Assembly (NCBI GenBank): GCA_021372295.1
Contig: JAJFUS010000027.1
Location: 8,378 to 72,377 of the forward strand
DNA length: 64,000 nt
Source: a bacterium
GTDB lineage: Bacteria; Armatimonadota; UBA5829
Reading direction: 5' to 3'
This document shows positions 26,101 to 42,365 of this stretch, piece by piece. The notes beneath the pieces were generated by a model. That model searched no databases, was not told where the DNA came from, and saw only the letters and a program-made list of their open reading frames with translations. Position 1 is the stretch's first letter, and the number at the start of each line of letters is the position of its first letter. The position numbers and the translations under genes were made by a program.

Positions 26101-28622
26101 ACAATAACTATGGATTCGCATGGGCGAGTGCGAAGGCGACCGTTTCAGGAGCTATCAGCGCTGCATTAAGTGGCGACCAAATATGGGTAGCGCAAGGAAC
26201 GTACGAAGAATGCATTACATTGCCCAGCGGCGTGAAGCTGTACGGTGGATTTGAAGGCACGGAGTCAGTGAGCACCGGGCGGCGTTATGCTTCATATGAG
26301 ACGATACTGGATGGAGACGGCTTTGATACCAGCGTCGTGACAATTCCCGCAAGCGCCACAAGCGCTACTGAGATAAACGGATTTACAATTCGGAATGGCG
26401 CAGGCACTTTAGTCGGAGTTAAAAAATACGGCGGCGGCATTATATGCAATAGCAGCAGTTCTCCAGTCATATCTAACAACAAGATAATTTCAAATATAAC
26501 TAACGACGGCGGCCAAGTGAGTGATCCCACCGTTGTTTTTCAGGGTGCTGGTATATACTGCGGAAGCGGATGCACGGCAACTATCATCAATAATCTGATT
26601 GCCGGTAACGGCATGTACGGTGGCACCGCAAATTCATCGGTTGGAGGTGGCATCAACTGTGACGGATGTAGTGGTGTTCTGCTTGTAAACAACACGATAG
26701 TGCGAAACGCTGCGGATCACGCAGTTGGTGTGCTTGTCAATAACAACGGCGTGATGACTGCATCTAATAACATCCTAGCATATAACTTTGGTAGGCCGAA
26801 CACTGGTGGTTTTGGCTTATATCTGTCGACTGGCACATTGACCACACATAACAACTGCAGCTATCCAGAAAGTAATAACACTCACAATGCTGATTCAAGT
26901 ACAGACATCAAGTCATCTCCGGGTTTTGTCAGTTTTACCGATAACACATCGCTGCCTGTTACCGGCATGGACTTTCATCTGGTGCTGACTTCCCTTTGTA
27001 TTGACGCCGGGTATCCCAGTGCAGTCGGAACAGGTTGGACGGATATAGATGGAGACACACGAAGCCTCAACCTGTGTGTAGACATTGGGGCAGATGAGCA
27101 CGGATATACCGATACAACTTTGCCCTCGGCTCCTGTCGTATCTGACGAGGGCGTATATACCTCATCGACCACCCAGCTTAGCGCTACCTGGACTGCGTCA
27201 ACTGACACAGGTCGCGGTTTGAAAGGCTATGAGATTGCACTATCAGAAGGCGGGACCGAAAATCTCGCATGGACGTATGTGGGTAACGTTACCAGCTATA
27301 CACTGACCGGGCTCAGCCTTAACTATGGAACCATATACTTTATCGCAGTGCGCGCAGTTGATAGAGCAGGGAATTACAATACTGGCATGTCAGATGGGAT
27401 CATGCCGCAGAAGACCGTGTATGTCAAAACCAGCGCCAACGGCGGCAGCGATGCTAATAATGGGCTAAGCTGGACGTCAGCCAAAGCCACATTCACAGGA
27501 GTTACAGGCGCATTGTCAATTGCTCCGGCCGGAACTATTATAAAAGTTGCCGCAGGGACATATAACGAGGCTATAGAATGTAGCGAAGTCTTTCTTTATG
27601 GAGCCTATCCATCCGCCGGCGGGGAGACTCGAAATTACACTAACAATATAACCACCATCAATGCCTCAGGTATTGCAGCCAGTGCGGTCTACATAAACAG
27701 TGATGATACGCCTTGGGGCTGTGCTGTCATAGATGGCTTTACGATAACCGGAGGATCGGGGACGGATGGTAAAGGCGGAGGTGTTTATGCAGATGGTTGT
27801 GTATCAGGTGACGGCTATTTGGTCATCAGCAATTGTCACATTACCTGCAATACCGCCGAGAATGGAGGCGGCATCTACGGCTACGGAGCAACCATCATTG
27901 ATAATGTGATCGATTACAATACTGTCAGTGATCAATATACAGCCACAGGCGCAGGTATCGCGTTTAGGTGTAATGGTGTTATCTCAGGAAACACGATCAC
28001 TCATAACACAGGCGATAGCGATCAACTGGGTTATGGTGGCGGCATTTATGTCAGTTCTAGTGCTATTGCCGGCCTTACAATCAGTGGCAACTTAATTGAA
28101 TTGAATACCATGCTTGGCGACACAATCTCAAGAGGTGGCGGTATCAGTATGAAGTGCAGTGGAGCGGTTGTTGCCGACAATATAATTGCAAAGTGCAAGG
28201 CGGAGGTAGGAGCAGGTATATATAGTGAAGAGACTGATTGTGATGCCGCAAACAACACCATAGTCAATATGTATGATGAAAACGGCAGTGCAAACAATGG
28301 CGAGGCCGTGAATGGCTGGTTCAGTGTATTCTTCAACAATATCATTGCCTATAATGGAACTGGGCTAAATGGTGGTGGGTCATGGCTCCAGACCAAGAAT
28401 TACTTCTACTCAAACGACGACAACGGAGATATCAGCAGCAACGACATTGCTGCCAGTGTGAGCCCTGGTCTGACCAGCACGTATCATCTTAGCTCAACTT
28501 CCCCATGTATTGACGCAGGGTATCTGTATTGGAACGCGTATATAGATGTAGACTATGACTACGACGGGCAATATAGAGAGAACAATATAGTTGACATAGG
28601 GGCAGACGAGTACTACCAGTAA
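20175..28622 (+). CDS. Giant (2815 aa) surface/secreted modular protein: six right-handed beta-helix (PbH1/pectate-lyase-like) modules, six Ig-like 'MRFSNDGSTWS' modules and one FN3-like module
   Basis: The N-terminus is lipoprotein-like (FCALAASC). Each beta-helix module starts (K/E)xIYVN..TG.DNNYGFTWA.AKAT and ends D.D.QPR..G..VDIGADE. The FN3-like module is at nt ~27120-27404. No C-terminal sorting signal was recognised. Confidence 0.85.
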   Translation: MRRIFIFAIICFCALAASCQTGADILRVKVGGTGNGTSWANAYGKIQDAITASSEDDRIWVQGYSDTTVYNECITLKNGVSIKGGYVGDNNNNTDDDLRDIGDNPTYVTTISASGLDSCVVYADGITNTEGTIIEYCTIRDGVGKLVSNYRYGCGVCCISASPTISHCRICTNYYDESGTYTYHGGGIYGDADSTPVIQNCVIVSNTSDCGGGIYLYQGICTDNNISSNRAWGQGGGASLGGSGATESTFTGNTVSSNHAVYGGGGVFLGNGSAYTVFSDNLIDSNGVIDDGGGISALGSCSILNNRITNNSAWGCGGGIFWYEGSSSGSLYNNVISGNKAYTWGKGAYISSSAHTEIVNNTIVNNTSQDGGINPCAIYLTGGTVGLYNNIIANNSTYGVYTVGQITYSYYNCLYNNGTDYNVTPVNSLGNINTSPSFETDGYHLAANSTNCIDAGYYDIVAWDTDIDTQPRVQGNNVDIGADEIDNDPPRGSIVISGSDVLYTLSTTVTLILHATDYSSGVYQMRFSNDDSTWSEWESYGSIKSWTLASGDGEKTVYVQYKDNAGNVSASFSDRIYLRVGNKVIYVNNQTGNDNNYGFTWATAKATIWRGVQAAQSGDEVWVAEGTYTITVICPTKSNIGIYGGFAGDELNRNDRDWVTHETIIDGSANYLVVDVPIEGSGSVIDGFTFRNGVPYDVGGYIWCSGSVTIAHNKVLIDEADSAIYIDAAATFHDNLVIASFLSGEPIKNGVVVGSGAQIFNNTIVNACIAYSDSGTYAVDNNIIANWGDTATITLDADSCYNNCFYGFDAADIIGVNNNFSGDPLFVDSANGDYHLSNISPCIDAGLGSVVGTGWLDIDNQPRIQGNSVDIGVDEVDNVVPVGSVLINQGDTYAQLADVVLTLTATDAVSGVSKMRFSNDGSTWSSWENYDTSWDWTLASGDGNKTVYAQFKDNAGNVSATYSDSIYLRVGEKTIYVNGQTGSDNNYGFTWASAKATVSGAISTALSGDQVWVAQGTYYGCITLPVGVKLYGGFPTTSESIPNPGLSDRDWTTNVSILDANGAASTVICNVGVTNTSVIDGFTITNATSTSGIKCTDAHPVISHNIIDINAVSGISCWGNSHPTIWGNIICDTATSASPLYGEIYDGIDINDTSSPLIVNNTIVDLPCNGIHLTNRLTVFPTIANNIIAYNSRGICSDGINTTSVLVNNLVAVNSTNYVYVTMGATDLIPYAPGFVDRSGADYHLIATSHAINGGDSSYVGEDWTDIDGESRIMGSHVDIGADEFVDFAAPTNGSIVINSGAENTESLSVTLTLSATDDYSGVYQMRFSNDGSTWSDWYSYATTKGWTLAANAAAEKTVYVQFQDKAYQISDSYSDTIVLVDITPPTGSVGISGSNGTCTLTTSVTLVLSASDSGSGVYQMRFSNDGSTWSDWESYATSKSWTLTSGEGEKIVYAQFKDYFGNVADASDAIYYRVGEKIIYVNAATGDDDNYGFTWATAKKSIYGATYQFVQSGDEIWVAAGQYSNIVSGFISVPNVAIYGGFLGSETSLDQRNWVANETEVINWGEASWGYIGLSGLVIDGFTLTDVSSRGWTSAVTMAHNKIWITEADETINLSAAVAFHDNLVITDTSQMYGETITGGVAFGSGAQIINNTLIDTKISYSGTGTYALKNNIVANLGDTSTLSLDLASCYNNCFYGFDVPGVIGSNGNFSSDPLFVYKAHYCGDYHLTYASPCIDTGLDSAVVSDLDLDKNDRQIDLAVGTSGVAVDIGAYEYPDLASPSGSIVIKNGDAYTQSTTVDLTLSATDDYSGVYQMRFSNDGSTWSSWVNYQTSSSCSLTSGDGTKTVYVQFMDNVGRVSGSFSDTIILDTTSPTGSISISNGALYATATSVTLNLSASDARSGVYQMRFSNDGSTWGNWINYATSASWSLTSGDGEKTVYAQFKDNVGNVSASYSDKIYLRVGAKTIYVNGETGGNNNYGFAWASAKATVSGAISAALSGDQIWVAQGTYEECITLPSGVKLYGGFEGTESVSTGRRYASYETILDGDGFDTSVVTIPASATSATEINGFTIRNGAGTLVGVKKYGGGIICNSSSSPVISNNKIISNITNDGGQVSDPTVVFQGAGIYCGSGCTATIINNLIAGNGMYGGTANSSVGGGINCDGCSGVLLVNNTIVRNAADHAVGVLVNNNGVMTASNNILAYNFGRPNTGGFGLYLSTGTLTTHNNCSYPESNNTHNADSSTDIKSSPGFVSFTDNTSLPVTGMDFHLVLTSLCIDAGYPSAVGTGWTDIDGDTRSLNLCVDIGADEHGYTDTTLPSAPVVSDEGVYTSSTTQLSATWTASTDTGRGLKGYEIALSEGGTENLAWTYVGNVTSYTLTGLSLNYGTIYFIAVRAVDRAGNYNTGMSDGIMPQKTVYVKTSANGGSDANNGLSWTSAKATFTGVTGALSIAPAGTIIKVAAGTYNEAIECSEVFLYGAYPSAGGETRNYTNNITTINASGIAASAVYINSDDTPWGCAVIDGFTITGGSGTDGKGGGVYADGCVSGDGYLVISNCHITCNTAENGGGIYGYGATIIDNVIDYNTVSDQYTATGAGIAFRCNGVISGNTITHNTGDSDQLGYGGGIYVSSSAIAGLTISGNLIELNTMLGDTISRGGGISMKCSGAVVADNIIAKCKAEVGAGIYSEETDCDAANNTIVNMYDENGSANNGEAVNGWFSVFFNNIIAYNGTGLNGGGSWLQTKNYFYSNDDNGDISSNDIAASVSPGLTSTYHLSSTSPCIDAGYLYWNAYIDVDYDYDGQYRENNIVDIGADEYYQ
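21639..21908 (+). repeat. Ig-like 'MRFSN' module 1 (aa 489-578 of the giant ORF)
   Basis: PPRGSIVISG...TDYSSGVYQMRFSNDDSTWSEWESY...GDGEKTVYVQYKDNAGNVS. Confidence 0.8.
22809..23078 (+). repeat. Ig-like 'MRFSN' module 2 (aa 879-968)
   Basis: VVPVGSVLINQG...TDAVSGVSKMRFSNDGSTWSSWENY...GDGNKTVYAQFKDNAGNVS. Confidence 0.8.
24039..24314 (+). repeat. Ig-like 'MRFSN' module 3 (aa 1289-1380)
   Basis: AAPTNGSIVINSG...TDDYSGVYQMRFSNDGSTWSDWYSY...EKTVYVQFQDKAYQIS. Confidence 0.8.
24324..24593 (+). repeat. Ig-like 'MRFSN' module 4 (aa 1384-1473), tandem to module 3
   Basis: TPPTGSVGISGS...SDSGSGVYQMRFSNDGSTWSDWESY...GEGEKIVYAQFKDYFGNVA. Confidence 0.8.
25509..25778 (+). repeat. Ig-like 'MRFSN' module 5 (aa 1779-1868)
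   Basis: ASPSGSIVIKNG...TDDYSGVYQMRFSNDGSTWSSWVNY...GDGTKTVYVQFMDNVGRVS. Confidence 0.8.
25785..26054 (+). repeat. Ig-like 'MRFSN' module 6 (aa 1871-1960), tandem to module 5
   Basis: TSPTGSISISNG...SDARSGVYQMRFSNDGSTWGNWINY...GDGEKTVYAQFKDNVGNVS. Confidence 0.8.
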
Positions 28623-35333: not shown

Positions 35334-35503
35334 TATTGTCTCCAAAAAAGCTGAAAGCTGAGGGCTAAGAGCCCAGACTTGTGTCAGCCCCTGCTCCTTC
35401 TCCTGGGGGAGAGGGCCGGGGTGAGGACGCAACGTATCAACAATGAGTTCGCCAAACCCTGATCGTTATCATCCAATTATTTGATGCGGAATATCCTTGA
35501 TGT

Positions 35504-35541
35504 TTGACGCAGCAGGGATATTTGGTTATAATACCAAATAT
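35504..35541 (+). promoter_or_regulatory. Sigma70-type promoter (TTGACG-17-TATAAT) with a 9-bp inverted repeat straddling the -10; candidate ArsR operator
   Basis: TTGACG is at 35504-35509 and TATAAT at 35527-35532. ATATTTGGT (35518-26) and ACCAAATAT (35533-41) flank the -10 hexamer. Confidence 0.55.
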
Positions 35542-35557: not shown

Positions 35558-35869
35558 ATGAACAGGCGAGCATACGAAGAGAGAGCGAAAATAATAAAGG
35601 CCCTGGCGCATCCCAGCCGGCTCATGATGGTCGATGCCATGGTGGACGGCGAAAAGTGCGTCTGCGAACTGCGTGACCTTGTTGGCTCGGATATGTCGAC
35701 TGTCTCCAAACATTTGTCACTCTTGAGAGAGGCCGGAATAGTCGATGACCGTAAAGTTGGTCAGCAGGTTTTTTACGGTCTGCGTTGTCCTTGCATTGTG
35801 AGCTTTTTCGGCTGTATCGAGGCGGTAATGAAATCCAATGCAAAAGATAAAATGGAACTAGTTGGATAG
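35558..35869 (+). CDS. ArsR/SmtB-family metalloregulator
   Basis: ...IIKALAHPSRLMMVDAM..GEKCVCELRDLVGSDMSTVSKHLSLLREAGIV... is a winged HTH with the CVC motif of arsenite-type ArsR. There are extra C-terminal Cys residues (CPC...GC). The start was chosen downstream of the mapped promoter. Confidence 0.85.
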   Translation: MNRRAYEERAKIIKALAHPSRLMMVDAMVDGEKCVCELRDLVGSDMSTVSKHLSLLREAGIVDDRKVGQQVFYGLRCPCIVSFFGCIEAVMKSNAKDKMELVG

Positions 35870-35978: not shown

Positions 35979-36215
35979 ATGAAGAAAATCCAGATTCTGG
36001 GCACCGGCTGTGCGAAGTGCAAGACTCTTTACGAAAATGCGAAAAAGGCGGTCGAAGAGACCGGAGTGGAAGCCGAGATCGAGAAAGTCGAGGATATCAA
36101 GGACATCATGAAATTCAACATACTGATGACTCCCGGCCTGGTGGTCGATGGTGAGGTCAAGGCCGCCGGCAGAGTGTTGTCGCCCGAAGATATCAGGAAG
36201 CTTTTGGTAAGCTGA
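35979..36215 (+). CDS. Small thioredoxin-fold protein (redox-active disulfide protein 2 / Thioredoxin_3 type)
   Basis: MKKIQILGTGCAKCKTLYENAKKA...ILMTPGLVVDGEV... It is 78 aa with a CxxC motif. GGAGGA lies upstream. Confidence 0.8.
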   Translation: MKKIQILGTGCAKCKTLYENAKKAVEETGVEAEIEKVEDIKDIMKFNILMTPGLVVDGEVKAAGRVLSPEDIRKLLVS

Positions 36216-36227: not shown

Positions 36228-36605
36228 ATGTCCAAAGAACTGCCCGGCCTGATAATGTGCGTCTGCACCGGCAAATGCCCCGGATTTTCCAAGATGGATA
36301 TATGGGACTTCATCAACCGTGTGCGCGTCGAGCTTCCTGTGGAATACGCGTTCATTCATCCACAGCTCTGTGAAGAGGACGGCGACAGGTTCCTTGCCGA
36401 CCTGCTGAAATCGGGTCGCAAACTGGTGATTGCCGGATGCGCGCCCAATATGCAGTACAAGATGTTCCGCGATGCATTTGAGACTGTCGGTATGGATGTC
36501 AAAGTGGATATGGTTCCGCTGGATATTCGTGACATGTCGACTGACGAGGCCGTCAAGAAAGTCTCGAAGGCACTTGTCGAGATGGGAGTAGAGCACGATG
36601 GCTGA
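36228..36605 (+). CDS. Cys-rich small protein, divergent DGC-like / MvhD(FlpD)-like fold (uncertain)
   Basis: LIMCVCTGKCPG...PQLCEED...LVIAGCAPN... is co-linear with the DGC paralogs downstream but has AGC instead of DGC and lacks the fourth Cys. Confidence 0.4.
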   Translation: MSKELPGLIMCVCTGKCPGFSKMDIWDFINRVRVELPVEYAFIHPQLCEEDGDRFLADLLKSGRKLVIAGCAPNMQYKMFRDAFETVGMDVKVDMVPLDIRDMSTDEAVKKVSKALVEMGVEHDG

Positions 36606-36885
36606 CGACACTTTCATGGGCGTGAAGCGCGATAAGATAGACTGGTCTCCAACCATCGATTACTCCAAATGCGATTTTTGCATGGAGTGCGACAAGTTCT
36701 GCCCGCACCATGTTTTCGAGCGGCGCGACGATGATCCGAAGCTGGTGGTTGCAAACCCGCACAACTGCGTCGTTTTTTGCAGAGCGTGCGCGAAGACATG
36801 CGGGCCGGACGCGATATCGTTTCCAAGCAAGCCCGAGACCATCGCGGCGATCAAGAAAATCCGCGAGCAGGAGGATGGGCAATGA
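36598..36885 (+). CDS. 4Fe-4S dicluster-type ferredoxin
   Basis: CDFCMECDKFCP (CxxCxxCxxxCP) and CVVFCRACAKTC. It overlaps both neighbouring genes (8 nt and 4 nt). Confidence 0.8.
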   Translation: MADDTFMGVKRDKIDWSPTIDYSKCDFCMECDKFCPHHVFERRDDDPKLVVANPHNCVVFCRACAKTCGPDAISFPSKPETIAAIKKIREQEDGQ

Positions 36886-37724
36886 AACGCGCGGTGCTGC
36901 CATGTAACGGGTTGGACAAAGCATTCGGTGTGCTTGCTCGTGAGCTGGCTTTGAAGCTCTCTGAAACTCAAGGCGCGCAGATAATCTGTCCGGTGCTGCT
37001 GAACAATTCTCCAGCTAGATATGAGAATACTCTGGCTGAGGCTGATCTTCTGGTTATAGACGGCTGCCCGACACGCTGCGCGACAAAACTCGCCAACAAA
37101 CTGGGATTAAAGATTGACGATAAGCTGCTGGTGTCCGAGCAGGCGAAGAGTTCAGGGCTGGAAGTCGGGAAGTCGCTGAGACCTGGACCGCTGGGAATTC
37201 AGTTGGTTGAAATTATGGCCAATGGGCTTTCCGCGTCAAAAGAGAAGTCGGCAGAATCGGTCGCATCCGATGTTTTTGAATCTCCGGGCGACTTCCTGAC
37301 CGTCACCTACGACAAATTCGTCTTCAAGATACCCGTAGAGGGCTACCTGTTCAATGAGAATGACTGCTGGGTTCGAGTAATCGGCGACAGAGCGCGAGTT
37401 GGGGTGTCGGACTTTGTTCAGCAGAATATGACCGATATTACCTATTTTGAACCGGCGCAGCTCGGCGCTGAAATCGAGCAGTTCGATGAAGTCGGATCGC
37501 TTGAGTCGGGCAAGTCGATGATGGATGTATTATCACCAGTTTCGGGCGTGATTGTTGCGGTCAACACCCAACTTTCCGACAATCCCGAACTAGTAAATGA
37601 AGATCCATACGGCAAGGGTTGGATCGCAGAAATAAAACTTCGAGACTTTGATTCGGACAAAGCGCTGCTTATTGACGCCTATGCTTACTCTAGGGCCGTC
37701 GAAAAGAAAGCCGCCGAAGCATGA
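36882..37724 (+). CDS. Fusion protein: N-terminal DGC (putative Zn-binding, four-Cys) domain + C-terminal GcvH-like lipoyl-carrier domain
   Basis: DGC part: LPCNG...IICPVL...VIDGCPTRCA. GcvH part: ...VRVGVSDFVQQ...GSLESGKSMMDVLSPVSGVIVAVN...PYGKGWIAEI, with the lipoyl-Lys motif ES(V/G)K...SPVSG conserved. Confidence 0.75.
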   Translation: MKRAVLPCNGLDKAFGVLARELALKLSETQGAQIICPVLLNNSPARYENTLAEADLLVIDGCPTRCATKLANKLGLKIDDKLLVSEQAKSSGLEVGKSLRPGPLGIQLVEIMANGLSASKEKSAESVASDVFESPGDFLTVTYDKFVFKIPVEGYLFNENDCWVRVIGDRARVGVSDFVQQNMTDITYFEPAQLGAEIEQFDEVGSLESGKSMMDVLSPVSGVIVAVNTQLSDNPELVNEDPYGKGWIAEIKLRDFDSDKALLIDAYAYSRAVEKKAAEA

Positions 37725-37785: not shown

Positions 37786-38196
37786 TTGACAACTGACACA
37801 GGCAAACGAAAAATCATAGTAATGCCATGCAGCGGCATCGGCAAAGTTCACGGCCTTATCGCTCGTGAGGCGACCTACGCCGTCGCCGATGAGATGGAGA
37901 ACGTCGAGACTATGTGCCTGGCGCTATTGGTTTCAGGCGACGAAGAAGCTCTGGCAAAACTCAGAAAAACCGACTGCATAGCGATAGACGGCTGCCCGAA
38001 GCTTTGCGCGGCCAAGAATGTGGAAATGGCAGGAGGCAAAGTAGTCAGGTCGATCCGTGTGGTCGATTCGTTCAAAAATCATCGCGGAGCCGAGCCCGGC
38101 ACGGCAACCACGCTTGCCAATGACGGCTGGACGATAGTTCAGGAAATAACTGGAGATATAACGGGCTGCGGATGCTCGGAAAGCGAGGTGAGCTAA
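37786..38196 (+). CDS. DGC-domain protein (paralog 2; TTG start)
   Basis: IIVMPCSGIGKVHG...TMCLALL...IAIDGCPKLCAAK. The C-terminal tail carries GCGC. Confidence 0.7.
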   Translation: MTTDTGKRKIIVMPCSGIGKVHGLIAREATYAVADEMENVETMCLALLVSGDEEALAKLRKTDCIAIDGCPKLCAAKNVEMAGGKVVRSIRVVDSFKNHRGAEPGTATTLANDGWTIVQEITGDITGCGCSESEVS

Positions 38197-38197
38197 T

Positions 38198-38881
38198 ATG
38201 TCCGACGGCGATATCAAGGTTGGGATCATTTCATGCAGCGGTGAGGAGATACCTGAAGGCACAATCTCCCGCCTGGCGACGCGAAGGGTTCTGGAACTTA
38301 TGCGGCCAGACAATACCGTGACAATCTGTCTGCCGTTATTCCTGGCTGGAAATCAAGCTGAACAGGAATTTGCCAAGAAACATCCGACCATAACCGTGGA
38401 CGGCTGCGACAAACTCTGCGCCAAGAAAGGCACCGAAAAGCATAGTGGGCCGGTAAGCGCTGCGCTGATTGTGTCGGATATACTCAACGGCGACTGCGCC
38501 TGTTGTGCTCGTTCGGCGAAGGATCGCACTGAGAGTGATAAGGCAGCTATCTGGACTGTCTCCGAGGAGATCGCCAAAGCAGTAGATTCGATTATCGCCA
38601 AAGATGCCTGTTGCGGTTCGGCAGATGCGGACGACGGTGCGGCCTGCGCGTGTTCAAAGCCGGTTCCCGGAATAGAGATCCAGGTCGACGGCAAGCCGGT
38701 CACCGTCGCCGGACTCGCGCTTATATTCGATCATCTGGCGGAAAATGGCCTTGCCGCCGACGATTCGTGTGGCGATAAGCTGCTCGAGACCGTTCGCATA
38801 TATCATCCGATCGAACCTGAAGAAGAGGATGCATATAAGGCAGCACTGATATCGGCATACAAAACACACAGGAGAATATAA
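38198..38881 (+). CDS. DGC-domain protein (paralog 3) with a Cys-rich C-terminal extension
   Basis: GIISCSGEEIPEG...TICLPLF...ITVDGCDKLCAKK, then ...CACCARS...DACCGS...ACAC... Confidence 0.7.
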   Translation: MSDGDIKVGIISCSGEEIPEGTISRLATRRVLELMRPDNTVTICLPLFLAGNQAEQEFAKKHPTITVDGCDKLCAKKGTEKHSGPVSAALIVSDILNGDCACCARSAKDRTESDKAAIWTVSEEIAKAVDSIIAKDACCGSADADDGAACACSKPVPGIEIQVDGKPVTVAGLALIFDHLAENGLAADDSCGDKLLETVRIYHPIEPEEEDAYKAALISAYKTHRRI

Positions 38882-39441
38882 TGAAAATCAAGTGGCTCAG
38901 ATTATTTGCAGTTATTTCGTTGATCGCCGCAATAGGGGTGAGCGCTCCGGTTTATAGTGCGCAGAAGAAAGCTGCAGCAAAAGTGAAGACCGGCGCGGTA
39001 TGCTCAAAGCCGGCTCCGGCAAAGAGCGTAAAAAAGTCCACGACAAAAAAGAACGCTTCAAAAGCTAAAGCCAAAGCAACCAAGAAACACGCTGCAAAGA
39101 AGTCGGCAACAAAGAAGAAAACCATTAAGGCAAAGCCTGCAGCATCTGTTTCGAAGGCTCTTCCGAGGTTGCTTGATCTGGGAGCGACCAAGTGTGTCCC
39201 ATGCAAGATGATGGTTCCTGTTCTGGACGACTTGAGCAAGGAGTATAAGGGTAAACTCAAGGTCGATTTCATCGATGTGTGGAAAGATCAGTCCGCTGGT
39301 GAGAAATACAACGTCCAGAGCATCCCTACTCAGATATTTTTCGATGCTAAGGGCAAAGAAGTCTATCGTCATGTCGGTTATTTCCCGAAAGCAGACATTT
39401 TGAAAGCATTCAAAGATCACGGAATCAAACTCACCAAGTAA
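38881..39441 (+). CDS. Exported thioredoxin (CVPC) with a Lys/Ala-rich linker
   Basis: It has a signal peptide (LIAAIGVSAPVYSA), a basic KKxAxK linker and a thioredoxin domain: LDLGATKCVPCKMMVPVLDDL...VQSIPTQIFFDAKGKEVYRHVG. Confidence 0.85.
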   Translation: MKIKWLRLFAVISLIAAIGVSAPVYSAQKKAAAKVKTGAVCSKPAPAKSVKKSTTKKNASKAKAKATKKHAAKKSATKKKTIKAKPAASVSKALPRLLDLGATKCVPCKMMVPVLDDLSKEYKGKLKVDFIDVWKDQSAGEKYNVQSIPTQIFFDAKGKEVYRHVGYFPKADILKAFKDHGIKLTK

Positions 39442-39455: not shown

Positions 39456-39611
39456 TTGAAGCCTTATGTGAAGTTATTATTGGTGGTGGCTGTTTTTGCG
39501 CTTTGGGTGATGCTGAACCATCTGTCCAGCAAGAATGCGCCGGAGGCGTCGAGTGGCTGCTGTTGCGACGGAGGAAGTTGCCCCATCACTTCTCCGGCGA
39601 CACCCAAGTAA
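39456..39611 (+). CDS. Unannotated 51-aa membrane peptide with a C-terminal GCCCDGGSCP motif (TTG start; GTG at 39468 is an alternative)
   Basis: Hand translation: (M)KPYVKLLLVVAVFALWVMLNHLSSKNAPEASSGCCCDGGSCPITSPATPK. AGGAGAGA lies 5 nt upstream. It is below the 60-aa cutoff of the ORF track and fills the gap between two thioredoxin genes. Confidence 0.55.
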   Translation: MKPYVKLLLVVAVFALWVMLNHLSSKNAPEASSGCCCDGGSCPITSPATPK

Positions 39612-39649: not shown

Positions 39650-40561
39650 ATGAAAACATTACTTTCTATACTTGCACTGACTTTGTCATGCGTTACGTGC
39701 GCAGTTGCGGATACAGCGGTTGTTACCGTCAAAGACACGTATCCGACCCTTACAAGCGGTGCGCTTGCGTCAGCGAGGCTTGTGGAACTTCCATCCGGCA
39801 CGATATTGCGCTCAGGGCAGATCAATCTCACACAGAAAGACCTGGATGCCGAGATAGCCAAGTCGCCCGAGGCAATACGCTCGCAACTCAAGCGCAACCT
39901 GTTCTTCGTGCTGGAGAACAAGGCTACGCAGGATTTCCTGGAGTATGAGGCTGACGCTTGGACCAGGCAAAACAAAACACATTCAAACCTCAATCAGGAC
40001 GATCTCGTAAAATCATATCTGTCGAGTCTAGCCGACAAATTAACGGTCAGCGACGAAGAAACCAAGGCTTTCTTCGACAAGAACGCCGACATGATGGGCG
40101 GCGCGACATTCGATCAGGTAAAAGATCAGCTCAAGGACTATGTTCTGGATCAGAAGCGTCAAGATGCAATAGACGCTCACATTGCATCAATGGGCACAAG
40201 ATACGAGATCGATGTAGACAATAGTTGGGCTGCAAAGCAATACTCTGCAGCAATTGACAATCCGATAGACAAGGCAAGGGTGTCAGGTAAGCCCACAATG
40301 GTAGATCTCGGCGCTGACGGCTGTCGCCCGTGCGATATGATGACTCCGATCCTGGAATCGCTGAAAAGTGAATATGCCGGAAGAGTAAATGTGCTTTTTG
40401 TGCACGTGCGCAAGGAGCAGGTTCTTGCGGCGCGTTATGGCGTGCAGTCGATTCCGGTGCAAGTCTTTTTTGACAAGGATGGTAAGGAAGTTTATCGACA
40501 CCTTGGATTTTTCCCAAAAGACCAGATAGTCGCGAAACTCGCCGAGATGGGGGTTAAGTAA
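39650..40561 (+). CDS. Exported two-domain protein: SurA-N/chaperone-like N-domain + thioredoxin (CRPC)
   Basis: It has a signal peptide. The C-terminal 110 aa (MVDLGADGCRPCDMMTPILESL...VQSIPVQVFFDKDGKEVYRHLG) are paralogous to the 38881 thioredoxin. Confidence 0.8.
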   Translation: MKTLLSILALTLSCVTCAVADTAVVTVKDTYPTLTSGALASARLVELPSGTILRSGQINLTQKDLDAEIAKSPEAIRSQLKRNLFFVLENKATQDFLEYEADAWTRQNKTHSNLNQDDLVKSYLSSLADKLTVSDEETKAFFDKNADMMGGATFDQVKDQLKDYVLDQKRQDAIDAHIASMGTRYEIDVDNSWAAKQYSAAIDNPIDKARVSGKPTMVDLGADGCRPCDMMTPILESLKSEYAGRVNVLFVHVRKEQVLAARYGVQSIPVQVFFDKDGKEVYRHLGFFPKDQIVAKLAEMGVK

Positions 40562-40562: not shown

Positions 40563-41261
40563 TTGGAGCAACTGTTCATTACGTTGTCAAAAGCAATCGA
40601 GGCGTCCGCGCCGATTGCATTGGGCGCTTCACTAATATGGGGTATACTGAGCGTTATCCTGAGTCCGTGCCACCTGTCGAGCATCCCGCTCATCATCGGA
40701 TTTATCAGCGAACAGGGTAAGCTGACGACGCGCAAAGCGTTTGGGCTGTCATTTCTGTTCGGCCTTGGAATACTCGTCACTATTGCGGTCATAGGCATTA
40801 TGACTGCGGCTATGGGCCGGATGATGGGCGATGTAGGCAGATACGGTAACTACGCCGTTGCTGCTGTCTTTTTTGTGGTCGGTTTGCATCTGATCGGAGT
40901 GATACCTATGCCGTTCTCGGGGCCGGGTAATGTCGGTATGCAGCGCAAGGGACTGTTCGCGTCGTTCATACTGGGGCTGGTGTTCGGTGTCGCGCTTGGC
41001 CCATGCACGTTCGCGTATATGGCTCCGGTTCTCACGCTGACATTCAAGGTCTCGGCAACAAACGCCGTATATGCGGTATTGCTGCTTGCCGCTTATGGTA
41101 TCGGGCACTGCTCGGTGATCGTAGCCGCAGGCACGTCAGCGGAGGCGGTTCAGAACTATCTCAACTGGAACGAGAGGTCAAAAGGGACAACTATCCTTAA
41201 GCGTATTTGCGGCGTTCTGGTTGTGTTGGGTGGGATCTACCTGATTTATGTGGCAAACTGA
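40563..41261 (+). CDS. ccdA: CcdA/DsbD-family transmembrane thiol:disulfide electron transporter
   Basis: Six TM segments carry the two conserved membrane Cys motifs (LSPCHLSSIPL and LGPCTFAYMAP). Confidence 0.85.
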   Translation: MEQLFITLSKAIEASAPIALGASLIWGILSVILSPCHLSSIPLIIGFISEQGKLTTRKAFGLSFLFGLGILVTIAVIGIMTAAMGRMMGDVGRYGNYAVAAVFFVVGLHLIGVIPMPFSGPGNVGMQRKGLFASFILGLVFGVALGPCTFAYMAPVLTLTFKVSATNAVYAVLLLAAYGIGHCSVIVAAGTSAEAVQNYLNWNERSKGTTILKRICGVLVVLGGIYLIYVAN

Positions 41262-41910
41262 GCTGGAAATCATAAAATGGTCGGAACCGACAGTCGAGCA
41301 GAATTTGCTAATGGATGAGCGCCTCGCGCGAGAGGCAAAGCAGACGGGCAGACGGGTTCTGCGTTTATGGTGGGGCAGCAACGCCACGGCAGTTCTTGGA
41401 TGTGGTGACAAACCCGAAGTTGCCCTGGATCTCGACGAGTGCGTTCGTCGTGGAATCGGTTGGGTGAAGAGAGTCACGGGTGGTGGAACGGTGCTGCAGA
41501 CGCCCGGAGTGTTCAACTATTCGTATACCGCGCCGGATGGCGGGCGCATGGATATGCAGCGAACGTTCCAACAAGGCGCAGAGCTTATTGTAAACGCCCT
41601 GGCGCGTTTCGGATTAAGCGCGCAGCAGCGTGGAATATCAGATGTTACAGTAGGTAATCTGAAAATTTCGGGAAACGCGCAGGCTCGAAAGTGGCATTCT
41701 GTGCTGCTTCATGGAACACTGTTGGCCGACATAGATCGTAAACTTATGGAGGCAGTACTAAAACATCCGAGTAAGGAACCGGATTATCGAAACGGCCGCG
41801 CTCACAAAGACTTTATTGTCACACTCAATGATCTTGGCGTAACAGCCAATCAGGTGGAAATTGAAAACGTCTTTGCATCGACGGCAATCGAAGTTTTTGG
41901 GCAAATATGA
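41248..41910 (+). CDS. Lipoate-protein ligase family protein (BPL_LplA_LipB catalytic domain)
   Basis: ...LRLWW...RRGIGWVKRVTGGGTVLQ...NLKISGNAQARKW...LHGTLL... matches the LplA/LipB-type catalytic core with the K-x-SG-x-AQ lysine. It overlaps ccdA by 14 nt. Confidence 0.75.
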   Translation: MWQTELEIIKWSEPTVEQNLLMDERLAREAKQTGRRVLRLWWGSNATAVLGCGDKPEVALDLDECVRRGIGWVKRVTGGGTVLQTPGVFNYSYTAPDGGRMDMQRTFQQGAELIVNALARFGLSAQQRGISDVTVGNLKISGNAQARKWHSVLLHGTLLADIDRKLMEAVLKHPSKEPDYRNGRAHKDFIVTLNDLGVTANQVEIENVFASTAIEVFGQI

Positions 41911-41933: not shown

Positions 41934-42365
41934 ATGGCTGATTTGACAATTGCAGTAGAAGCAAAATCTTGCAGCAAGACGCGCACGGATGTTAGCGTCC
42001 GTGACCTGGTTTTTAGTATTGATGAACCTGAAAAACTCGGTGGCACCAATACTGGGCCAAATCCAATTGAATATGTGCTGGGTGCCCTCGCGGGTTGCAT
42101 CAACGTTGTTGGACATATTGTCGCAAAAGAGATGGGCTTTGATATCAGTTCGATGAAGCTGCATTTGGAGGGAAACCTTGATCCACTGGGCTATATGGGC
42201 AGAAAAACCGGTGTTCGCCCCGGCTTCAAGGAGATACGAGTGTCGATTGATATAGAGTCCACTGCAAGCGCCGACGTATTGCAAGAGTGGGCCAGGGCAA
42301 TAGAGGCTCGATGCCCGGTAAGCGACAATCTTGGTCAAATGACTCCGATAAATATTAGTTTGTGA
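41934..42365 (+). CDS. OsmC/Ohr-family peroxiredoxin-like protein
   Basis: ...GTNTGPNPIEYVLGALAGCINV...ARCPVSDNL... has the two conserved OsmC Cys positions. Confidence 0.8.
   Translation: MADLTIAVEAKSCSKTRTDVSVRDLVFSIDEPEKLGGTNTGPNPIEYVLGALAGCINVVGHIVAKEMGFDISSMKLHLEGNLDPLGYMGRKTGVRPGFKEIRVSIDIESTASADVLQEWARAIEARCPVSDNLGQMTPINISL

What the first reader, a model, noticed from the sequence alone, without database searches (positions are those of the whole stretch)
36882..37724. Fusion of a DGC four-Cys domain to a lipoylatable GcvH-like domain
The N-terminal ~110 aa carry the DGC signature (LPCNG, IICP, VIDGCPTRCA). The C-terminal ~125 aa align with glycine-cleavage H proteins, and the lipoyl-lysine motif is conserved (ESGKSMMDVLSPVSG versus the canonical ESVKAASD(L/I)YSPVSG). 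No gcvP or gcvT genes and no 2-oxoacid dehydrogenase genes are present in the window. The fusion therefore physically links a dithiol(lipoyl) carrier to a domain of unknown function. Its ATG overlaps the ferredoxin stop (ATGA).
Basis: partly seen in the sequence, partly recalled or inferred. Interest (0 to 1): 0.7.

Follow-up and report, generated by a model that had tools for sequence, protein, structure and literature searches.

The report
Arsenic-island lipoyl carrier fused to DGC
This gene really does fuse a four-cysteine DGC domain to a lipoic-acid-carrying H-protein domain, and it sits at the centre of a widespread, uncharacterised gene cassette that usually lies in arsenic-resistance islands, not in glycine metabolism.

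Summary
ORF 36882-37724 (+) encodes 280 aa with a DGC domain (PF08859, E 1e-17) and a GcvH domain (PF01597, E 5e-32). The GcvH half models onto solved H proteins (TM 0.89-0.94), with the invariant Lys211 in the hairpin turn. It is not an artefact: at least 120 protein clusters share the architecture, in Acidobacteriota, Clostridia and Asgard archaea, among others.

The fusion is the third gene of a core cassette found in 27 of 27 loci: a 125-aa five-Cys protein (remote match to the HdrA N-terminal domain), a 2x[4Fe-4S] ferredoxin, the fusion, and two more DGC proteins. An ArsR lies nearby in 23 of 27 loci, arsenic structural genes (ArsC, Acr3, ArsA, ArsD, ArsM) in 19, and a lipoate ligase or true Lpd in 12.

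The H domain is a distinct subfamily. The canonical KEHEW motif is replaced by ENDCW, the Ser three residues after the lipoyl Lys becomes hydrophobic, and it scores just under NCBI's GcvH cut-offs. No gcvT or gcvP lies nearby.

My best reading is an arsenic-induced, iron-sulfur-fed dithiol (lipoyl) relay or arsenical-handling module. The mechanism is inferred, not shown. The DGC fold has no solved relative, and I found no paper on this system.

The parts
35490..35541 (+). Promoter with overlapping palindromic operator(s) of the operon
   Evidence: TTGACG-17-TATAAT at 35504-35532, 11 of 12 matches. Inverted repeat 35490-35502/35510-35522 spans the -35 hexamer. A perfect 9-nt inverted repeat ATATTTGGT/ACCAAATAT (35518-35526/35533-35541) flanks the -10 hexamer. 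Its function as an ArsR operator is inferred.
35558..35869 (+). ArsR/SmtB-family repressor with a C-V-C-E-L dyad in helix 3
   Evidence: PF01022 HTH_5 E 1.8e-12. NCBIfam HTH_metalloreg 82.6 bits, above its cut-off of 55. The gene caller starts it at 35558. The CxC dyad is kept in about 30 of 34 cassette-adjacent ArsR copies.
35979..36215 (+). Small thioredoxin-like protein of the MTH895/ArsE family
   Evidence: PF13192 E 4.8e-28. TIGR00412 'MTH895/ArsE family thioredoxin-like protein' 111.1 bits, above its cut-off of 62. Present in 13 of 27 related loci.
36228..36605 (+). 'Cys125': 125-aa protein with five invariant Cys, a probable iron-sulfur electron-transfer module
   Evidence: No Pfam or NCBIfam hit even at E 10. 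A profile of 15 orthologues has as its top three PDB hits the N-terminal domain (res 5-93) of three HdrA proteins: 7bkb E 4.6e-4, 9sfi 1.4e-3, 5odc 0.06. Four of the five Cys align to HdrA Cys. Present in 27 of 27 loci at 67-80% identity.
36598..36885 (+). 2x[4Fe-4S] ferredoxin, with best below-threshold NCBIfam matches to HgcB/HgcAB-like ferredoxins
   Evidence: Fer4 family hits. Motifs CxxCxxCxxxCP and CxxxCxxCxxxCG are visible in the translation. Its stop overlaps the fusion's ATG. Present in 27 of 27 loci.
36882..37724 (+). The finding: the DGC-GcvH fusion protein (280 aa)
36891..37145 (+). DGC domain (aa 4-88) with invariant C8, C36, D60-G61-C62 and C66
   Evidence: PF08859. Invariance. 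The domain-only model has pLDDT 95.3 and pTM 0.89. The Cys sit just after strands 1, 2 and 3 and at the first turn of the following helix. No PDB relative by sequence profile or by fold (best Foldseek E 0.035, TM below 0.5).
37353..37706 (+). GcvH-fold lipoyl-carrier domain (aa 158-275), preceded by a subfamily-specific beta-hairpin (aa 138-151)
   Evidence: PF01597. Foldseek TM 0.89-0.94 to H proteins. Extra strands at 138-143 and 146-151. Subfamily signature F-N-E-N-D-C-W (aa 157-163).
37512..37514 (+). Codon of Lys211, the predicted lipoylation site
   Evidence: Invariant in 61 fused and 54 stand-alone sequences. Lies in the hairpin turn. Aligns with the lipoyl Lys of the E. coli and T. thermophilus H proteins. 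Lipoylation itself is not shown.
37786..38196 (+). Second DGC protein (136 aa)
   Evidence: PF08859 E 2.3e-16. Present in 27 of 27 loci.
38198..38881 (+). Third DGC protein (227 aa) with an unassigned Cys-rich C-terminal extension
   Evidence: PF08859 E 2.3e-15. The extension has no Pfam hit. Present in 26 of 27 loci.
38881..39441 (+). Exported thioredoxin
   Evidence: PF00085 E 4e-14. The N-terminal signal-like hydrophobic segment is read from the translation.
39456..39611 (+). 51-aa membrane-anchored Cys-rich peptide (GCCCDGGSC); membership of the system is uncertain
   Evidence: Called as a gene in the public assembly. Translation.
39650..40561 (+). Second exported thioredoxin-domain protein
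   Evidence: PF00085 E 4.5e-12 at aa 212-298.
40563..41261 (+). CcdA/DsbD-type membrane thiol-disulfide electron conduit (weakly ArsG-like)
   Evidence: PF02683 E 1.3e-10. NCBIfam ArsG NF040495 scores only 48.5 bits against a cut-off of 200. Present in 6 of 27 loci.
41248..41910 (+). Catalytic-domain-only lipoate/octanoate protein ligase-like enzyme, a candidate dedicated modifier of Lys211
   Evidence: PF21948 LplA-B_cat E 3.6e-36. TIGR00545 scores 88.8 bits, below its cut-off of 280. A homologue follows the cassette in L004, L017 and L086 and lies near it in L088.
41934..42365 (+). OsmC-like thiol peroxidase-fold protein
   Evidence: PF02566 E 7.2e-18. An OsmC gene also directly follows the third DGC gene in L087, and an OsmC-like ORF does so in the unfused Terriglobia variant L046.

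Best explanation
Shown: the gene encodes a real, conserved two-domain protein. It has an N-terminal Rossmann-like DGC domain with four invariant cysteines clustered at the strand ends, which is a metal or iron-sulfur site. A flexible linker joins it to a GcvH-fold domain that keeps the lipoyl-lysine hairpin. The H domain belongs to a separate subfamily that has lost the residues and the gene neighbours typical of glycine-cleavage H proteins. The protein is the middle gene of a fixed cassette: HdrA-N-terminal-like Cys protein, 2x[4Fe-4S] ferredoxin, DGC-GcvH, DGC, DGC. The cassette is usually preceded by an ArsE-type mini-thioredoxin and an ArsR repressor, and in most genomes it is embedded among arsC, acr3, arsA, arsD and arsM.

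Inferred mechanism: the operon is derepressed when ArsR binds As(III). Low-potential electrons pass from the ferredoxin and the HdrA-like protein to the cysteine-ligated centres of the DGC domains, and from there to the lipoyl disulfide carried on Lys211. In Acetobacterium and Clostridium thailandense the electrons can come instead from NADH through the Lpd encoded next to the cassette. The reduced swinging dithiol arm is then the working group. It reduces thiol partners: the ArsE-like thioredoxin, thioredoxin-coupled ArsC, and CcdA feeding the exported thioredoxins in this window. It may also capture trivalent arsenicals, for which dihydrolipoyl groups are the classical high-affinity ligand, and pass them to the cysteine sites. 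Fusing the carrier to one DGC domain keeps the arm next to its redox or metalloid-binding partner.

In this window the cassette has been combined with an LplA-like modifier, an export branch (two secreted thioredoxins and CcdA) and OsmC, but with no arsenic pump.
For: Real fusion and lipoyl-carrier fold. Not a glycine-cleavage H protein: it scores just under both NCBIfam GcvH cut-offs (116.4 vs 117; 108.1 vs 115.85). No gcvT or gcvP is present in the window or in any of 27 loci. Canonical Y-(H/S)-K-E-H-(E/T)-W is replaced by F-N-E-N-D-C-W, and the Ser three residues after the Lys (46 of 54 stand-alone) is replaced by F/M/L (56 of 61 fused). Cassette: Cys125, Fd and DGC2 in 27 of 27 loci and DGC3 in 26 of 27, across Acidobacteriota, Actinomycetes, Clostridia, Bacteroidales and Asgard archaea. 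Functional link independent of the fusion: Terriglobia loci L046 and L053 encode an unfused GcvH-like protein followed by the two DGC proteins, an ArsE-type thioredoxin and ArsR, with an OsmC-like ORF in L046. Arsenic link: ArsR in 23 of 27 loci, with the C-V-C-[DE]-L dyad in about 30 of 34 copies. At least one of ArsC, Acr3, ArsA, ArsD or ArsM lies within 8-10 kb in 19 of 27 loci. Identities were checked by Pfam and NCBIfam, and ArsM passes its cut-off at 338.9 vs 263. Gene orders such as ArsR-ArsC-ArsM-Acr3-ArsR-Trx3-Cys125-Fd-fusion-DGC-DGC-OsmC support this. Experimental precedent for a DGC protein: the ArsR5-ArsP-ArsE-DGC operon of P. mercurii ND132 is up-regulated by As(III) and As(V) (bioRxiv 10.1101/2022.10.17.512643). 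Lipoate handling: an LplA-like gene or a true dihydrolipoyl dehydrogenase (TIGR01350, 509.8 bits, cut-off 408.8) lies in 12 of 27 loci. Electron-transfer partners: the ferredoxin, and Cys125 with a remote match to the HdrA N-terminal domain and aligned Cys. Promoter with palindromes over the -35 and -10 hexamers.
Against: No step of the mechanism has been tested. The direction of electron flow, the cofactor of DGC (Zn, Fe-S, or As itself) and the substrate are all inferred. DGC has no solved or characterised relative, and no detectable profile similarity to the HdrA-like protein (hhalign probability 1.7%). The HdrA link of Cys125 is weak (best E 4.6e-4 against PDB only) and was not recovered by a single-sequence search of 1.84 billion proteins. 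This window contains no ArsA, ArsC, ArsD, ArsM, Acr3 or Lpd gene, so here the arsenic link rests on orthology and on the ArsR motif. CxC ArsR/SmtB sensors can also respond to Sb, Cd, Pb or Bi (own knowledge). Eight of 27 loci show no arsenic structural gene within the flanks held. Lipoylation of Lys211 is unproven.
Confidence: 0.5

Rival explanations
1. Arsenical sink or metallochaperone without redox catalysis. The reduced lipoyl arm and the DGC cysteines simply bind As(III) or methyl/aryl-As(III). This protects essential lipoyl enzymes and hands the metalloid to ArsA/Acr3, as ArsD does. The iron-sulfur partners only keep the arm reduced.
For: The arsenic-island context and the ArsA/ArsD neighbours in Clostridia. 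Three DGC domains each have four invariant Cys. A Cys replaces the canonical Glu next to the arm-docking site in 48 of 61 fused domains, which would give a three-sulfur site together with the two lipoyl thiols. The affinity of dihydrolipoyl groups for trivalent arsenicals is classical (own knowledge).
Against: It does not explain why a ferredoxin and an HdrA-like Cys protein are invariant members (27 of 27) while pumps are not. Cys162 is not invariant. Four invariant Cys per DGC domain fit a structural or redox metal site better than a three-coordinate As site.
Confidence: 0.2
2. General thiol/peroxide-stress module. The lipoyl domain is the reductant of the OsmC-like peroxidase and of the thioredoxin/CcdA export branch. 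The ArsR-family regulator senses another signal, such as persulfide, reactive oxygen species or another metal.
For: In this window the operon ends with two exported thioredoxins, CcdA, LplA and OsmC, with no arsenic pump. OsmC recurs in L087 and an OsmC-like ORF in L046. The regulator also gives a sub-threshold hit to sulfite/persulfide sensor BigR (64.5 bits, cut-off 155). Ohr/OsmC peroxidases can use lipoylated proteins as reductants (own knowledge). S. aureus GcvH-L promotes oxidative-stress resistance (abstract of PMC12440151).
Against: My tblastn table scored OsmC in 1 of 27 loci. Pfam calls and ORF reading add L087 and an OsmC-like ORF in unfused L046. CcdA is in 6 of 27, whereas arsenic structural genes are in 19 of 27. 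The regulators keep the metalloid-type CVC dyad.
Confidence: 0.12
3. Sulfur or arsenic-transforming enzyme. The lipoyl arm carries a persulfide or an arsenical intermediate, as proposed for LbpA in sHdr sulfur oxidation. Possible roles are thioarsenical formation, anaerobic reduction or demethylation of organoarsenicals, or iron-sulfur repair after arsenic damage.
For: A cysteine desulfurase (TIGR01977, 453 bits, cut-off 377) lies in 11 of 27 loci, with a PF04060 Fe-S protein in 8 of 27 and an IscA/HesB-like protein in the Acetobacterium islands. A rhodanese lies in L083. ArsM is a neighbour. ND132 makes unidentified thioarsenicals. An HdrA-like module together with a GcvH-like carrier recalls sHdr-LbpA (abstract of PMC6067878).
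Against: No HdrB, HdrC, DsrE or TusA genes were seen in the Pfam-annotated loci. The desulfurase is confined to Firmicutes loci and is mostly divergently transcribed. No candidate catalytic subunit beyond DGC is known.
Confidence: 0.13
4. Ordinary glycine-cleavage H protein that happens to carry an extra N-terminal domain, as public annotation says ('glycine cleavage system protein GcvH').
For: 37% identity to E. coli and T. thermophilus H proteins and near-threshold NCBIfam scores. Source names.
Against: No gcvT or gcvP in the window or in 27 loci. The subfamily-specific replacement of conserved H-protein residues. The fixed iron-sulfur/DGC partners and the ArsR control.
Confidence: 0.03
5. 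Frameshift or assembly artefact joining two genes.
For: None found.
Against: The identical protein occurs in two independent assemblies. At least 120 clusters share the architecture at about 280 aa. The linker and an extra hairpin are conserved and confidently modelled.
Confidence: 0.01

Closest known systems
Glycine cleavage system H protein (GcvH; PF01597, TIGR00527)
   Same: Same fold (TM 0.89-0.94). Same E-S-x-K lipoyl-lysine hairpin and the P-V-S-G and N-E-D-P-Y-G-x-G-W motifs. About 37% identity.
   Different: Fused to a DGC domain and carrying an extra N-terminal beta-hairpin. KEHEW is replaced by ENDCW, and the Ser three residues after the Lys by F/M/L. It scores just below both NCBIfam cut-offs. 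It is never next to gcvT or gcvP, and always sits in the Cys125-Fd-DGC cassette.
LbpA, the lipoate-binding protein of the Hdr-like (sHdr) sulfur-oxidation system (eLife 2018, PMC6067878)
   Same: A GcvH-like lipoyl carrier used outside glycine cleavage. It is encoded with Hdr-related iron-sulfur proteins and, in some genomes, a dedicated lipoate ligase (abstract seen).
   Different: No HdrB/HdrC (CCG) subunits, full-length HdrA, DsrE or TusA were seen in the Pfam-annotated loci. The partners are DGC proteins, the control is ArsR, and the context is arsenic genes rather than sulfur oxidation. Sequence relationship to LbpA was not tested.
GcvH-L of Firmicutes (S. pyogenes 5a35; S. aureus GcvH-L)
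   Same: A non-canonical H-like lipoyl carrier tied to stress resistance (abstract of PMC12440151). 5a35 is a structural match (E 1e-7, TM 0.86).
   Different: Much weaker sequence match than to true GcvH (5a35 E 1.5e-4 against 1e-20 or better). No sirtuin or macrodomain neighbours were seen in the Pfam-annotated loci. The fusion partner differs.
ArsR-ArsP-ArsE-DGC operon of Pseudodesulfovibrio mercurii ND132, and the ArsEFG organoarsenical system of Shewanella putrefaciens (Chen, Zhang, Rosen 2019)
   Same: An ArsR-controlled operon that pairs an ArsE-type mini-thioredoxin with a PF08859 DGC protein, and is induced by As(III) and As(V) in ND132. The window also has an ArsE-family thioredoxin (above cut-off) and a DsbD_TM membrane protein whose best NCBIfam match is ArsG.
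   Different: Those operons have no lipoyl carrier, ferredoxin or HdrA-like protein. The ArsG match is far below its cut-off (48.5 vs 200). I could not read the 2019 paper, so I could not check what ArsF is.
Iron-sulfur disulfide reductases (HdrABC, ferredoxin:thioredoxin reductase); a functional analogy only
   Same: A ferredoxin plus cysteine-ligated clusters delivering electrons to a disulfide. Cys125 aligns with the HdrA N-terminal domain, including four Cys.
   Different: No homology of DGC to HdrB, FTR or any solved structure. The activity is untested.
ArsD arsenic metallochaperone; a functional analogy only
   Same: A cysteine-rich soluble protein in ars operons that could bind As(III). 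ArsD and ArsA are neighbours of the cassette in Acetobacterium and Eubacterium.
   Different: No sequence or fold relationship was found. ArsD has no cofactor arm.

Membership tests
GcvH (glycine cleavage H protein) | H-protein fold | tested here: met
   Foldseek against PDB: TM 0.89-0.94, rmsd 0.9-1.7 A to E. coli, bovine, human and T. thermophilus H proteins. PF01597 E 5.5e-32.
GcvH (glycine cleavage H protein) | Lipoyl-lysine in the E-S-x-K motif at the hairpin tip | tested here: met
   K211 is invariant, lies in the turn between strands 203-208 and 213-217, and aligns to the lipoyl Lys. The modification itself was not tested.
GcvH (glycine cleavage H protein) | Score above the curated equivalog cut-off | tested here: not met
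   TIGR00527 108.1 bits vs 115.85. PRK01202 116.4 vs 117. The miss is narrow.
GcvH (glycine cleavage H protein) | Conserved K-E-H-E-W motif and Ser three residues after the Lys (residues that line the arm-docking cavity in H proteins; own knowledge) | tested here: not met
   The fused domains have E-N-D-C-W (N160 in 61 of 61, D161 in 59 of 61, C162 in 48 of 61) and F/M/L three residues after the Lys (56 of 61). Stand-alone H proteins have K-E-H-E/T-W and Ser (46 of 54).
GcvH (glycine cleavage H protein) | Works with GcvT, GcvP and Lpd (gene linkage) | tested here: not met
   No gcvT or gcvP in the window or in the neighbour sets of 27 loci. Lpd lies next to the cassette only in Acetobacterium and C. 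thailandense, and there inside ars islands.
DGC domain family (PF08859) | Profile match above the gathering score, with the D-G-C motif and four conserved Cys | tested here: met
   64.3 bits vs 27. C8, C36, D60-G61-C62 and C66 are invariant.
DGC domain family (PF08859) | Binds zinc, as Pfam and the ND132 preprint suppose | not testable with these tools
   Only the geometry is suggestive: the Cys sit at strand ends in the model. Zn, Fe-S and As cannot be told apart here.
LbpA / sHdr system | Encoded with shdr genes (hdrA, hdrB1/B2, hdrC1/C2) and sulfur-transfer proteins (DsrE3, TusA) | tested here: not met
   None of these Pfam families appears in the annotated loci. Only a 125-aa HdrA-N-terminal-like protein is present.
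LbpA / sHdr system | Dedicated lipoate-protein ligase in the cluster | tested here: inconclusive
   An LplA-like catalytic-domain protein lies in or next to the cassette in 5 of 27 loci, including the window. Its relation to sLpl(AB) was not tested.
GcvH-L / SirTM-macrodomain operon | Neighbouring sirtuin (SirTM), macrodomain and LplA2 genes | tested here: not met
   No such families appear among the neighbours of the Pfam-annotated loci. Sequence match to 5a35 is weak (E 1.5e-4).
ars (arsenic resistance) operon component | Under an ArsR repressor with the metalloid-binding CxC dyad | tested here: met
   ArsR is the first gene of the operon. The CVCEL dyad is present and conserved in about 30 of 34 cassette-adjacent copies. 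A promoter and palindromes lie upstream. Binding and induction were not tested.
ars (arsenic resistance) operon component | Linked to established ars structural genes | tested here: inconclusive
   Met for the family: 19 of 27 loci have ArsC, Acr3, ArsA, ArsD or ArsM. Not met for this window, which has none in 64 kb.
ars (arsenic resistance) operon component | Confers resistance to, or transforms, an arsenical | not testable with these tools
   The only indirect evidence is arsenic induction of a DGC-containing operon in ND132.
ArsEFG organoarsenical system | ArsE-family thioredoxin-like protein | tested here: met
   TIGR00412 'MTH895/ArsE family' 111.1 bits vs 62 for ORF 35979-36215.
ArsEFG organoarsenical system | ArsG efflux permease | tested here: not met
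   NF040495 48.5 bits vs 200 for ORF 40563-41261. It is a generic DsbD_TM/CcdA protein.
ArsEFG organoarsenical system | ArsF | not tested
   The 2019 paper is not held, so the nature of ArsF is unknown to me. DGC2 and DGC3 match no NCBIfam model.

The most novel reading that the evidence does not exclude
The cassette would be a previously unrecognised, horizontally mobile arsenic-handling enzyme system of anaerobes and soil bacteria, and the first use of protein-bound lipoate in metalloid detoxification. In it, a ferredoxin-fed set of DGC metal centres and a tethered lipoyl arm catalyse a reaction on an arsenical. Candidates are ferredoxin-dependent reduction of As(V) or pentavalent organoarsenicals, anaerobic demethylation, or thiolation. 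This reading would also give the DGC domain (PF08859) its first function.
Probability: 0.25. Interest if true: 0.85.

Novelty: new variant of a known kind. Interest (0 to 1): 0.72.

Why it matters
Protein-bound dihydrolipoate is the textbook target of arsenite and of arsenical war gases. A dedicated lipoyl-carrier protein placed under an arsenic sensor and inside arsenic-resistance islands would turn the target into part of the defence. It would be a third non-canonical role for H-like lipoyl proteins, after sulfur oxidation (LbpA) and the SirTM/GcvH-L stress system.

It would also give a first functional handle on two orphan families: the DGC domain (PF08859) and the 125-aa HdrA-N-like protein, which has no Pfam model.

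It would correct a systematic misannotation, since these proteins are named 'glycine cleavage system protein H' in public records.

It would point to how strict anaerobes such as acetogens and Asgard archaea supply reducing power for arsenic detoxification.

The cassette occurs in cultured, genetically accessible acetogens (Acetobacterium, Eubacterium callanderi), so the hypothesis is directly testable.

Tried and rejected
- Sequence-profile search of the DGC domain against PDB (22 sequences): nothing significant. The best hit was a motif-level resemblance to the GCPxxCA cluster loop of nitrite reductase NirA (E 0.84), which I did not use as evidence.
- Fold search with a high-confidence DGC-only model: only generic Rossmann 2x2, flavodoxin-like and CheY-like hits (best E 0.035, TM below 0.5). 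The fold class is clear, but there is no informative relative.
- The idea that DGC and the HdrA-N-like protein are remote homologues: hhalign probability 1.7%. Rejected.
- Single-sequence search of Cys125 against 1.84 billion representatives: 113 hits, nearly all short stand-alone proteins, and no long HdrA-type proteins that would confirm the link. The HdrA link therefore rests on the PDB profile search alone.
- Plasmid collection: no fused homologue and no DGC2 match.
- Nine literature searches on DGC/PF08859, GcvH with arsenic, ArsEFG, and Lpd with ars operons. They found only the ND132 preprint for PF08859 and nothing on the fusion. The ArsEFG paper could not be read.
- Distance between Lys211 and the DGC cysteines: not obtainable, because model coordinates and PAE are not exposed.
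- My naive ORF-based neighbour maps are noisy in GC-rich genomes because of antisense ORFs. Counts were therefore taken from tblastn with defined queries and from the collection's own gene calls.


Full report
**1. The observation**

ORF 36882-37724 (+) exists as described. Its ATG overlaps the TGA of the upstream ferredoxin gene (ATGA at 36882-36885), and a GGAGGA lies 7-12 nt upstream. The translation contains LPCNG, IICP, VIDGCPTRCA and ESGKSMMDVLSPVSG. Pfam places a DGC domain (PF08859) at aa 4-88 (E 1.2e-17, 64 bits, cut-off 27). It places a GCV_H domain (PF01597) at aa 158-275 (E 5.5e-32, 111 bits, cut-off 22). The chance of these matches arising at random is negligible.

**2. Not an artefact**

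The identical protein is encoded in an NCBI assembly (GCA_039698155.1, contig JBDKTN010000011) and in an independent Logan assembly of run SRR15035647. A search of 5.8 billion proteins returned 975 relatives. The 120 best (50-81% identity, about 280 aa) all carry both Pfam domains.

In one-genome-per-species contigs the full-length fusion occurs in about 26 species. These include cultured Acetobacterium wieringae, A. malicum (two copies), Eubacterium callanderi, Clostridium thailandense, Moorella naiadis and Acididesulfobacillus acetoxydans. They also include Acidobacteriota, a Bacteroidales MAG, an Actinomycetes MAG and several Asgard archaea. Public names call it 'glycine cleavage system protein H'.

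**3. Anatomy of the protein**

An alignment of 35 homologues shows these positions invariant: C8, C36, D60-G61-C62, C66, E208, S209, K211, P219-V220-x-G222 and the NxDPYGxGW block.

AlphaFold2 with that alignment gives mean pLDDT 90 (pTM 0.66), with only residues 121-125 below 50. The C-terminal half superposes on solved H proteins with target-normalised TM 0.89-0.94 and rmsd 0.9-1.7 A. K211 sits in the turn between strands 203-208 and 213-217, as the lipoyl lysine does in H proteins. Two further strands (138-143 and 146-151) precede the canonical H fold. They are conserved, and they also occur in an unfused relative.

The DGC half modelled alone (pLDDT 95.3, pTM 0.89) is a small alpha/beta sandwich. 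Its four Cys lie directly after strands 1, 2 and 3 and at the start of the next helix. That is the usual place for a cofactor or metal site. It has no relative in the PDB by sequence profile or by fold (best E 0.035, TM below 0.5). I could not measure whether the lipoyl arm reaches the cysteine cluster, because coordinates and PAE are not available to me.

**4. The H domain is a distinct subfamily**

It scores just under both NCBIfam GcvH cut-offs: 116.4 vs 117 and 108.1 vs 115.85. I compared 61 fused domains with 54 stand-alone H proteins from the same search.

- Canonical Y-(H/S)-K-E-H-(E/T)-W becomes F-N-E-N-D-C-W. F157 and N160 are in 61 of 61, D161 in 59 of 61, and C162 in 48 of 61.
- The Ser three residues after the lipoyl Lys (46 of 54 stand-alone) becomes F, M or L (56 of 61 fused).

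In H proteins these positions line the cavity that holds the loaded arm (own knowledge, not checked here). Their concerted replacement argues against an aminomethyl-carrier role. No gcvT, gcvP or 2-oxoacid dehydrogenase gene is present among the large ORFs of the window or near any homologue.

**5. The surroundings in the window**

A near-consensus promoter lies at 35504-35532 (TTGACG-17-TATAAT, 11 of 12). It is overlapped by an imperfect palindrome across the -35 hexamer and by a perfect 9-nt inverted repeat flanking the -10 hexamer. Thirteen same-strand ORFs follow, overlapping or separated by gaps of about 110 nt or less. One of them is a 51-aa Cys-rich peptide whose membership is uncertain.

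| Gene | Coordinates |
|---|---|
| ArsR-family repressor with a CVCEL dyad | 35558-35869 |
| MTH895/ArsE-family mini-thioredoxin | 35979-36215 |
| 125-aa five-Cys protein with no Pfam model ('Cys125') | 36228-36605 |
| 2x[4Fe-4S] ferredoxin | 36598-36885 |
| The fusion | 36882-37724 |
| Second DGC protein | 37786-38196 |
| Third DGC protein | 38198-38881 |
| Exported thioredoxin | 38881-39441 |
| 51-aa Cys-rich peptide | 39456-39611 |
| Second exported thioredoxin | 39650-40561 |
| CcdA/DsbD-type membrane protein | 40563-41261 |
| LplA-like catalytic-domain protein | 41248-41910 |
| OsmC-like protein | 41934-42365 |

A profile of 15 Cys125 orthologues finds, as its three best PDB hits, the N-terminal domain (residues 5-93) of three different HdrA proteins (E 4.6e-4, 1.4e-3, 0.06). 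Four of the five invariant Cys align to HdrA Cys. This is a weak but consistent sign of an iron-sulfur electron-transfer module.

**6. The surroundings elsewhere**

I ran tblastn with the window's proteins and with verified ars queries against 27 loci that hold at least 9 kb.

| Feature within the flanks | Loci (of 27) |
|---|---|
| Cys125 | 27 |
| Ferredoxin | 27 |
| DGC2 | 27 |
| DGC3 | 26 |
| ArsR | 23 |
| ArsE-type thioredoxin | 13 |
| At least one of ArsC, Acr3, ArsA, ArsD, ArsM | 19 |
| LplA-like gene or Lpd | 12 |
| Cysteine desulfurase | 11 |
| CcdA | 6 |

The identities of the ars neighbours were checked by Pfam and NCBIfam. ArsA matches PF02374 (E 2.5e-106). Acr3 matches PF01758. ArsM scores 338.9 bits against a cut-off of 263. 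The ArsC-like protein has its best match to thioredoxin-type arsenate reductase, below the cut-off. Lpd scores 509.8 on TIGR01350 against 408.8.

Typical gene orders are:

- ArsR-ArsC-ArsM-Acr3-ArsR-Trx3-Cys125-Fd-fusion-DGC-DGC-OsmC (L087).
- ArsR-Acr3-ArsC-ArsR-Trx3-Cys125-Fd-fusion-DGC-DGC-Trx-Fd-LplA-DGC-Trx-Trx-DsbD_TM (L086).
- In Acetobacterium: ArsC, ArsC, DGC and ArsR divergent from Cys125-Fd-fusion-DGC-DGC, then a cysteine desulfurase and a PF04060 Fe-S protein, then Lpd-ArsA-(IscA-like)-ArsD-ArsM.

The cassette-adjacent ArsR proteins keep the C-V-C-[DE]-L dyad in about 30 of 34 copies. This is the metalloid-binding motif of classical ArsR (own knowledge).

Two Terriglobia loci encode the H-like domain unfused. 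It is followed by the two DGC proteins, an ArsE-type thioredoxin and ArsR, with an OsmC-like ORF in L046. The GcvH-DGC partnership therefore does not depend on the fusion.

Cys125 is 67-80% identical between bacteria and Asgard archaea. The whole family has only 113 representatives in 1.84 billion proteins. That pattern fits a horizontally mobile resistance-type module.

**7. Literature**

The only paper in the library that mentions PF08859 describes an ArsR5-ArsP-ArsE-DGC operon in Pseudodesulfovibrio mercurii ND132. It reports that this operon is up-regulated by As(III) and As(V) (bioRxiv 10.1101/2022.10.17.512643). Nine searches found nothing on a DGC-GcvH fusion or on a lipoyl protein in ars operons.

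Non-canonical H-like carriers are known: LbpA in Hdr-like sulfur oxidation (PMC6067878) and GcvH-L in S. aureus oxidative-stress resistance (PMC12440151). I saw only the abstracts of both.

**8. Most likely mechanism**

What is shown:
- a lipoylatable carrier domain is fused to a four-Cys domain;
- its partners are fixed: a ferredoxin, an HdrA-like protein and two more DGC proteins;
- it is under ArsR-type control;
- it is frequently embedded in ars islands;
- a lipoate ligase or Lpd is frequently nearby.

What is inferred: ArsR releases the promoter on binding As(III). Electrons flow from ferredoxin and Cys125 through the DGC metal centres, or from NADH through Lpd where present, to the lipoyl disulfide on K211. 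The reduced arm then reduces thiol partners (the ArsE-like thioredoxin, thioredoxin-type ArsC, and CcdA feeding the exported thioredoxins). It may also chelate trivalent arsenicals and pass them on. Dihydrolipoyl groups bind trivalent arsenicals very tightly (classical knowledge).

I give the general statement 'arsenic-linked lipoyl carrier module, not glycine cleavage' about 0.85. I give this specific redox-relay mechanism about 0.4-0.5.

**9. Rivals**

- A non-catalytic arsenical sink or chaperone (0.2). It does not explain the invariant ferredoxin and Cys125.
- A general thiol/peroxide-stress module using OsmC and exported thioredoxins (0.12). It fits this window, which has no ars pump in 64 kb, but it does not fit the family-wide pattern.
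- A sulfur- or arsenic-transforming enzyme with a persulfide- or arsenical-carrying arm (0.13). It is suggested by the desulfurase, rhodanese and ArsM neighbours.
- A canonical H protein (0.03).
- An artefact (0.01).

**10. Comparison and novelty**

By fold and motif the C-terminal half is a member of the GcvH superfamily. It fails three defining features of the glycine-cleavage H protein: curated score, conserved cavity residues and gene partners. It also lacks the partners that define LbpA/sHdr and GcvH-L/SirTM in the annotated loci. The N-terminal half is a clear member of PF08859, a family with no known function or structure.

The sequences are already in public databases, named as GcvH. 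I found the cassette, its arsenic association and the distinct H-domain subfamily described nowhere.

I rate it a new variant of a known kind: a third class of non-canonical lipoyl-carrier system. There is a real chance (about 0.25) that it is a new arsenic-transforming enzyme system.

Noticed in passing
window 39456-39611 (+): A 51-aa ORF with one hydrophobic helix followed by GCCCDGGSC lies between the two exported thioredoxin genes. It is called as a gene in the public assembly. It may be a small metal(loid)-binding membrane peptide.
   Followed up: no
window 36228-36605 (+), and L001-L026 orthologues: The 125-aa five-Cys protein has no Pfam or NCBIfam model. It is 67-80% identical between Acidobacteriota, Clostridia and Asgard archaea. 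Its family has only 113 representatives in 1.84 billion proteins. Its only detectable relative is the N-terminal domain of HdrA.
   Followed up: partly
window 37365-37367 (Cys162 codon): In 48 of 61 fused H domains a Cys replaces the canonical Glu/Thr just before the conserved Trp. This lies next to where the lipoyl arm docks in H proteins. Together with the two lipoyl thiols it could form a three-sulfur arsenic site. This is speculative.
   Followed up: partly
window 38600-38881 (+); L046 9300-9572: The C-terminal ~90 aa of the third DGC protein (Cys-rich stretch ACCGS...CACS followed by a compact domain) has no Pfam match. It is conserved in Acidobacteriota and Terriglobia but absent from the Clostridia orthologues.
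   Followed up: partly
window 35518-35541: A perfect 9-nt inverted repeat ATATTTGGT/ACCAAATAT brackets the -10 hexamer TATAAT of the operon promoter. A second palindrome spans the -35 hexamer. This is probably the ArsR operator.
   Followed up: partly
L008, L011, L012, L014, L024, L025 (Acetobacterium) and L009 (C. thailandense): The ars islands of these acetogens and clostridia contain a bona fide dihydrolipoyl dehydrogenase (TIGR01350, 510 bits). The Acetobacterium islands also hold a TIGR01977 cysteine desulfurase and a PF04060 Fe-S protein, and three of them an IscA/HesB-like protein, next to ArsA/ArsD/ArsM.
   Followed up: partly
L046 7944-10778 and L053 (Terriglobia): An unfused variant of the system: a 169-aa GcvH-like protein (E-T-M-K motif), two DGC proteins, an ArsE-type thioredoxin and ArsR, with an OsmC-like ORF in L046. 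It lacks Cys125 and the ferredoxin.
   Followed up: partly
window 7622-19456: A phage or mobile-element remnant: a D5-type primase (7622-10417) and a tape-measure protein (12131-13924).
   Followed up: no
window 20175-28622 (+): A 2815-aa beta-helix repeat protein (PF13229, Big_7), followed by MacB/FtsX-type ABC export genes on the opposite strand.
   Followed up: no
window 62722-63876 (-): A 384-aa radical SAM protein of unknown specificity, 21 kb from the lipoyl-carrier operon. I did not check whether it is a lipoyl synthase.
   Followed up: no
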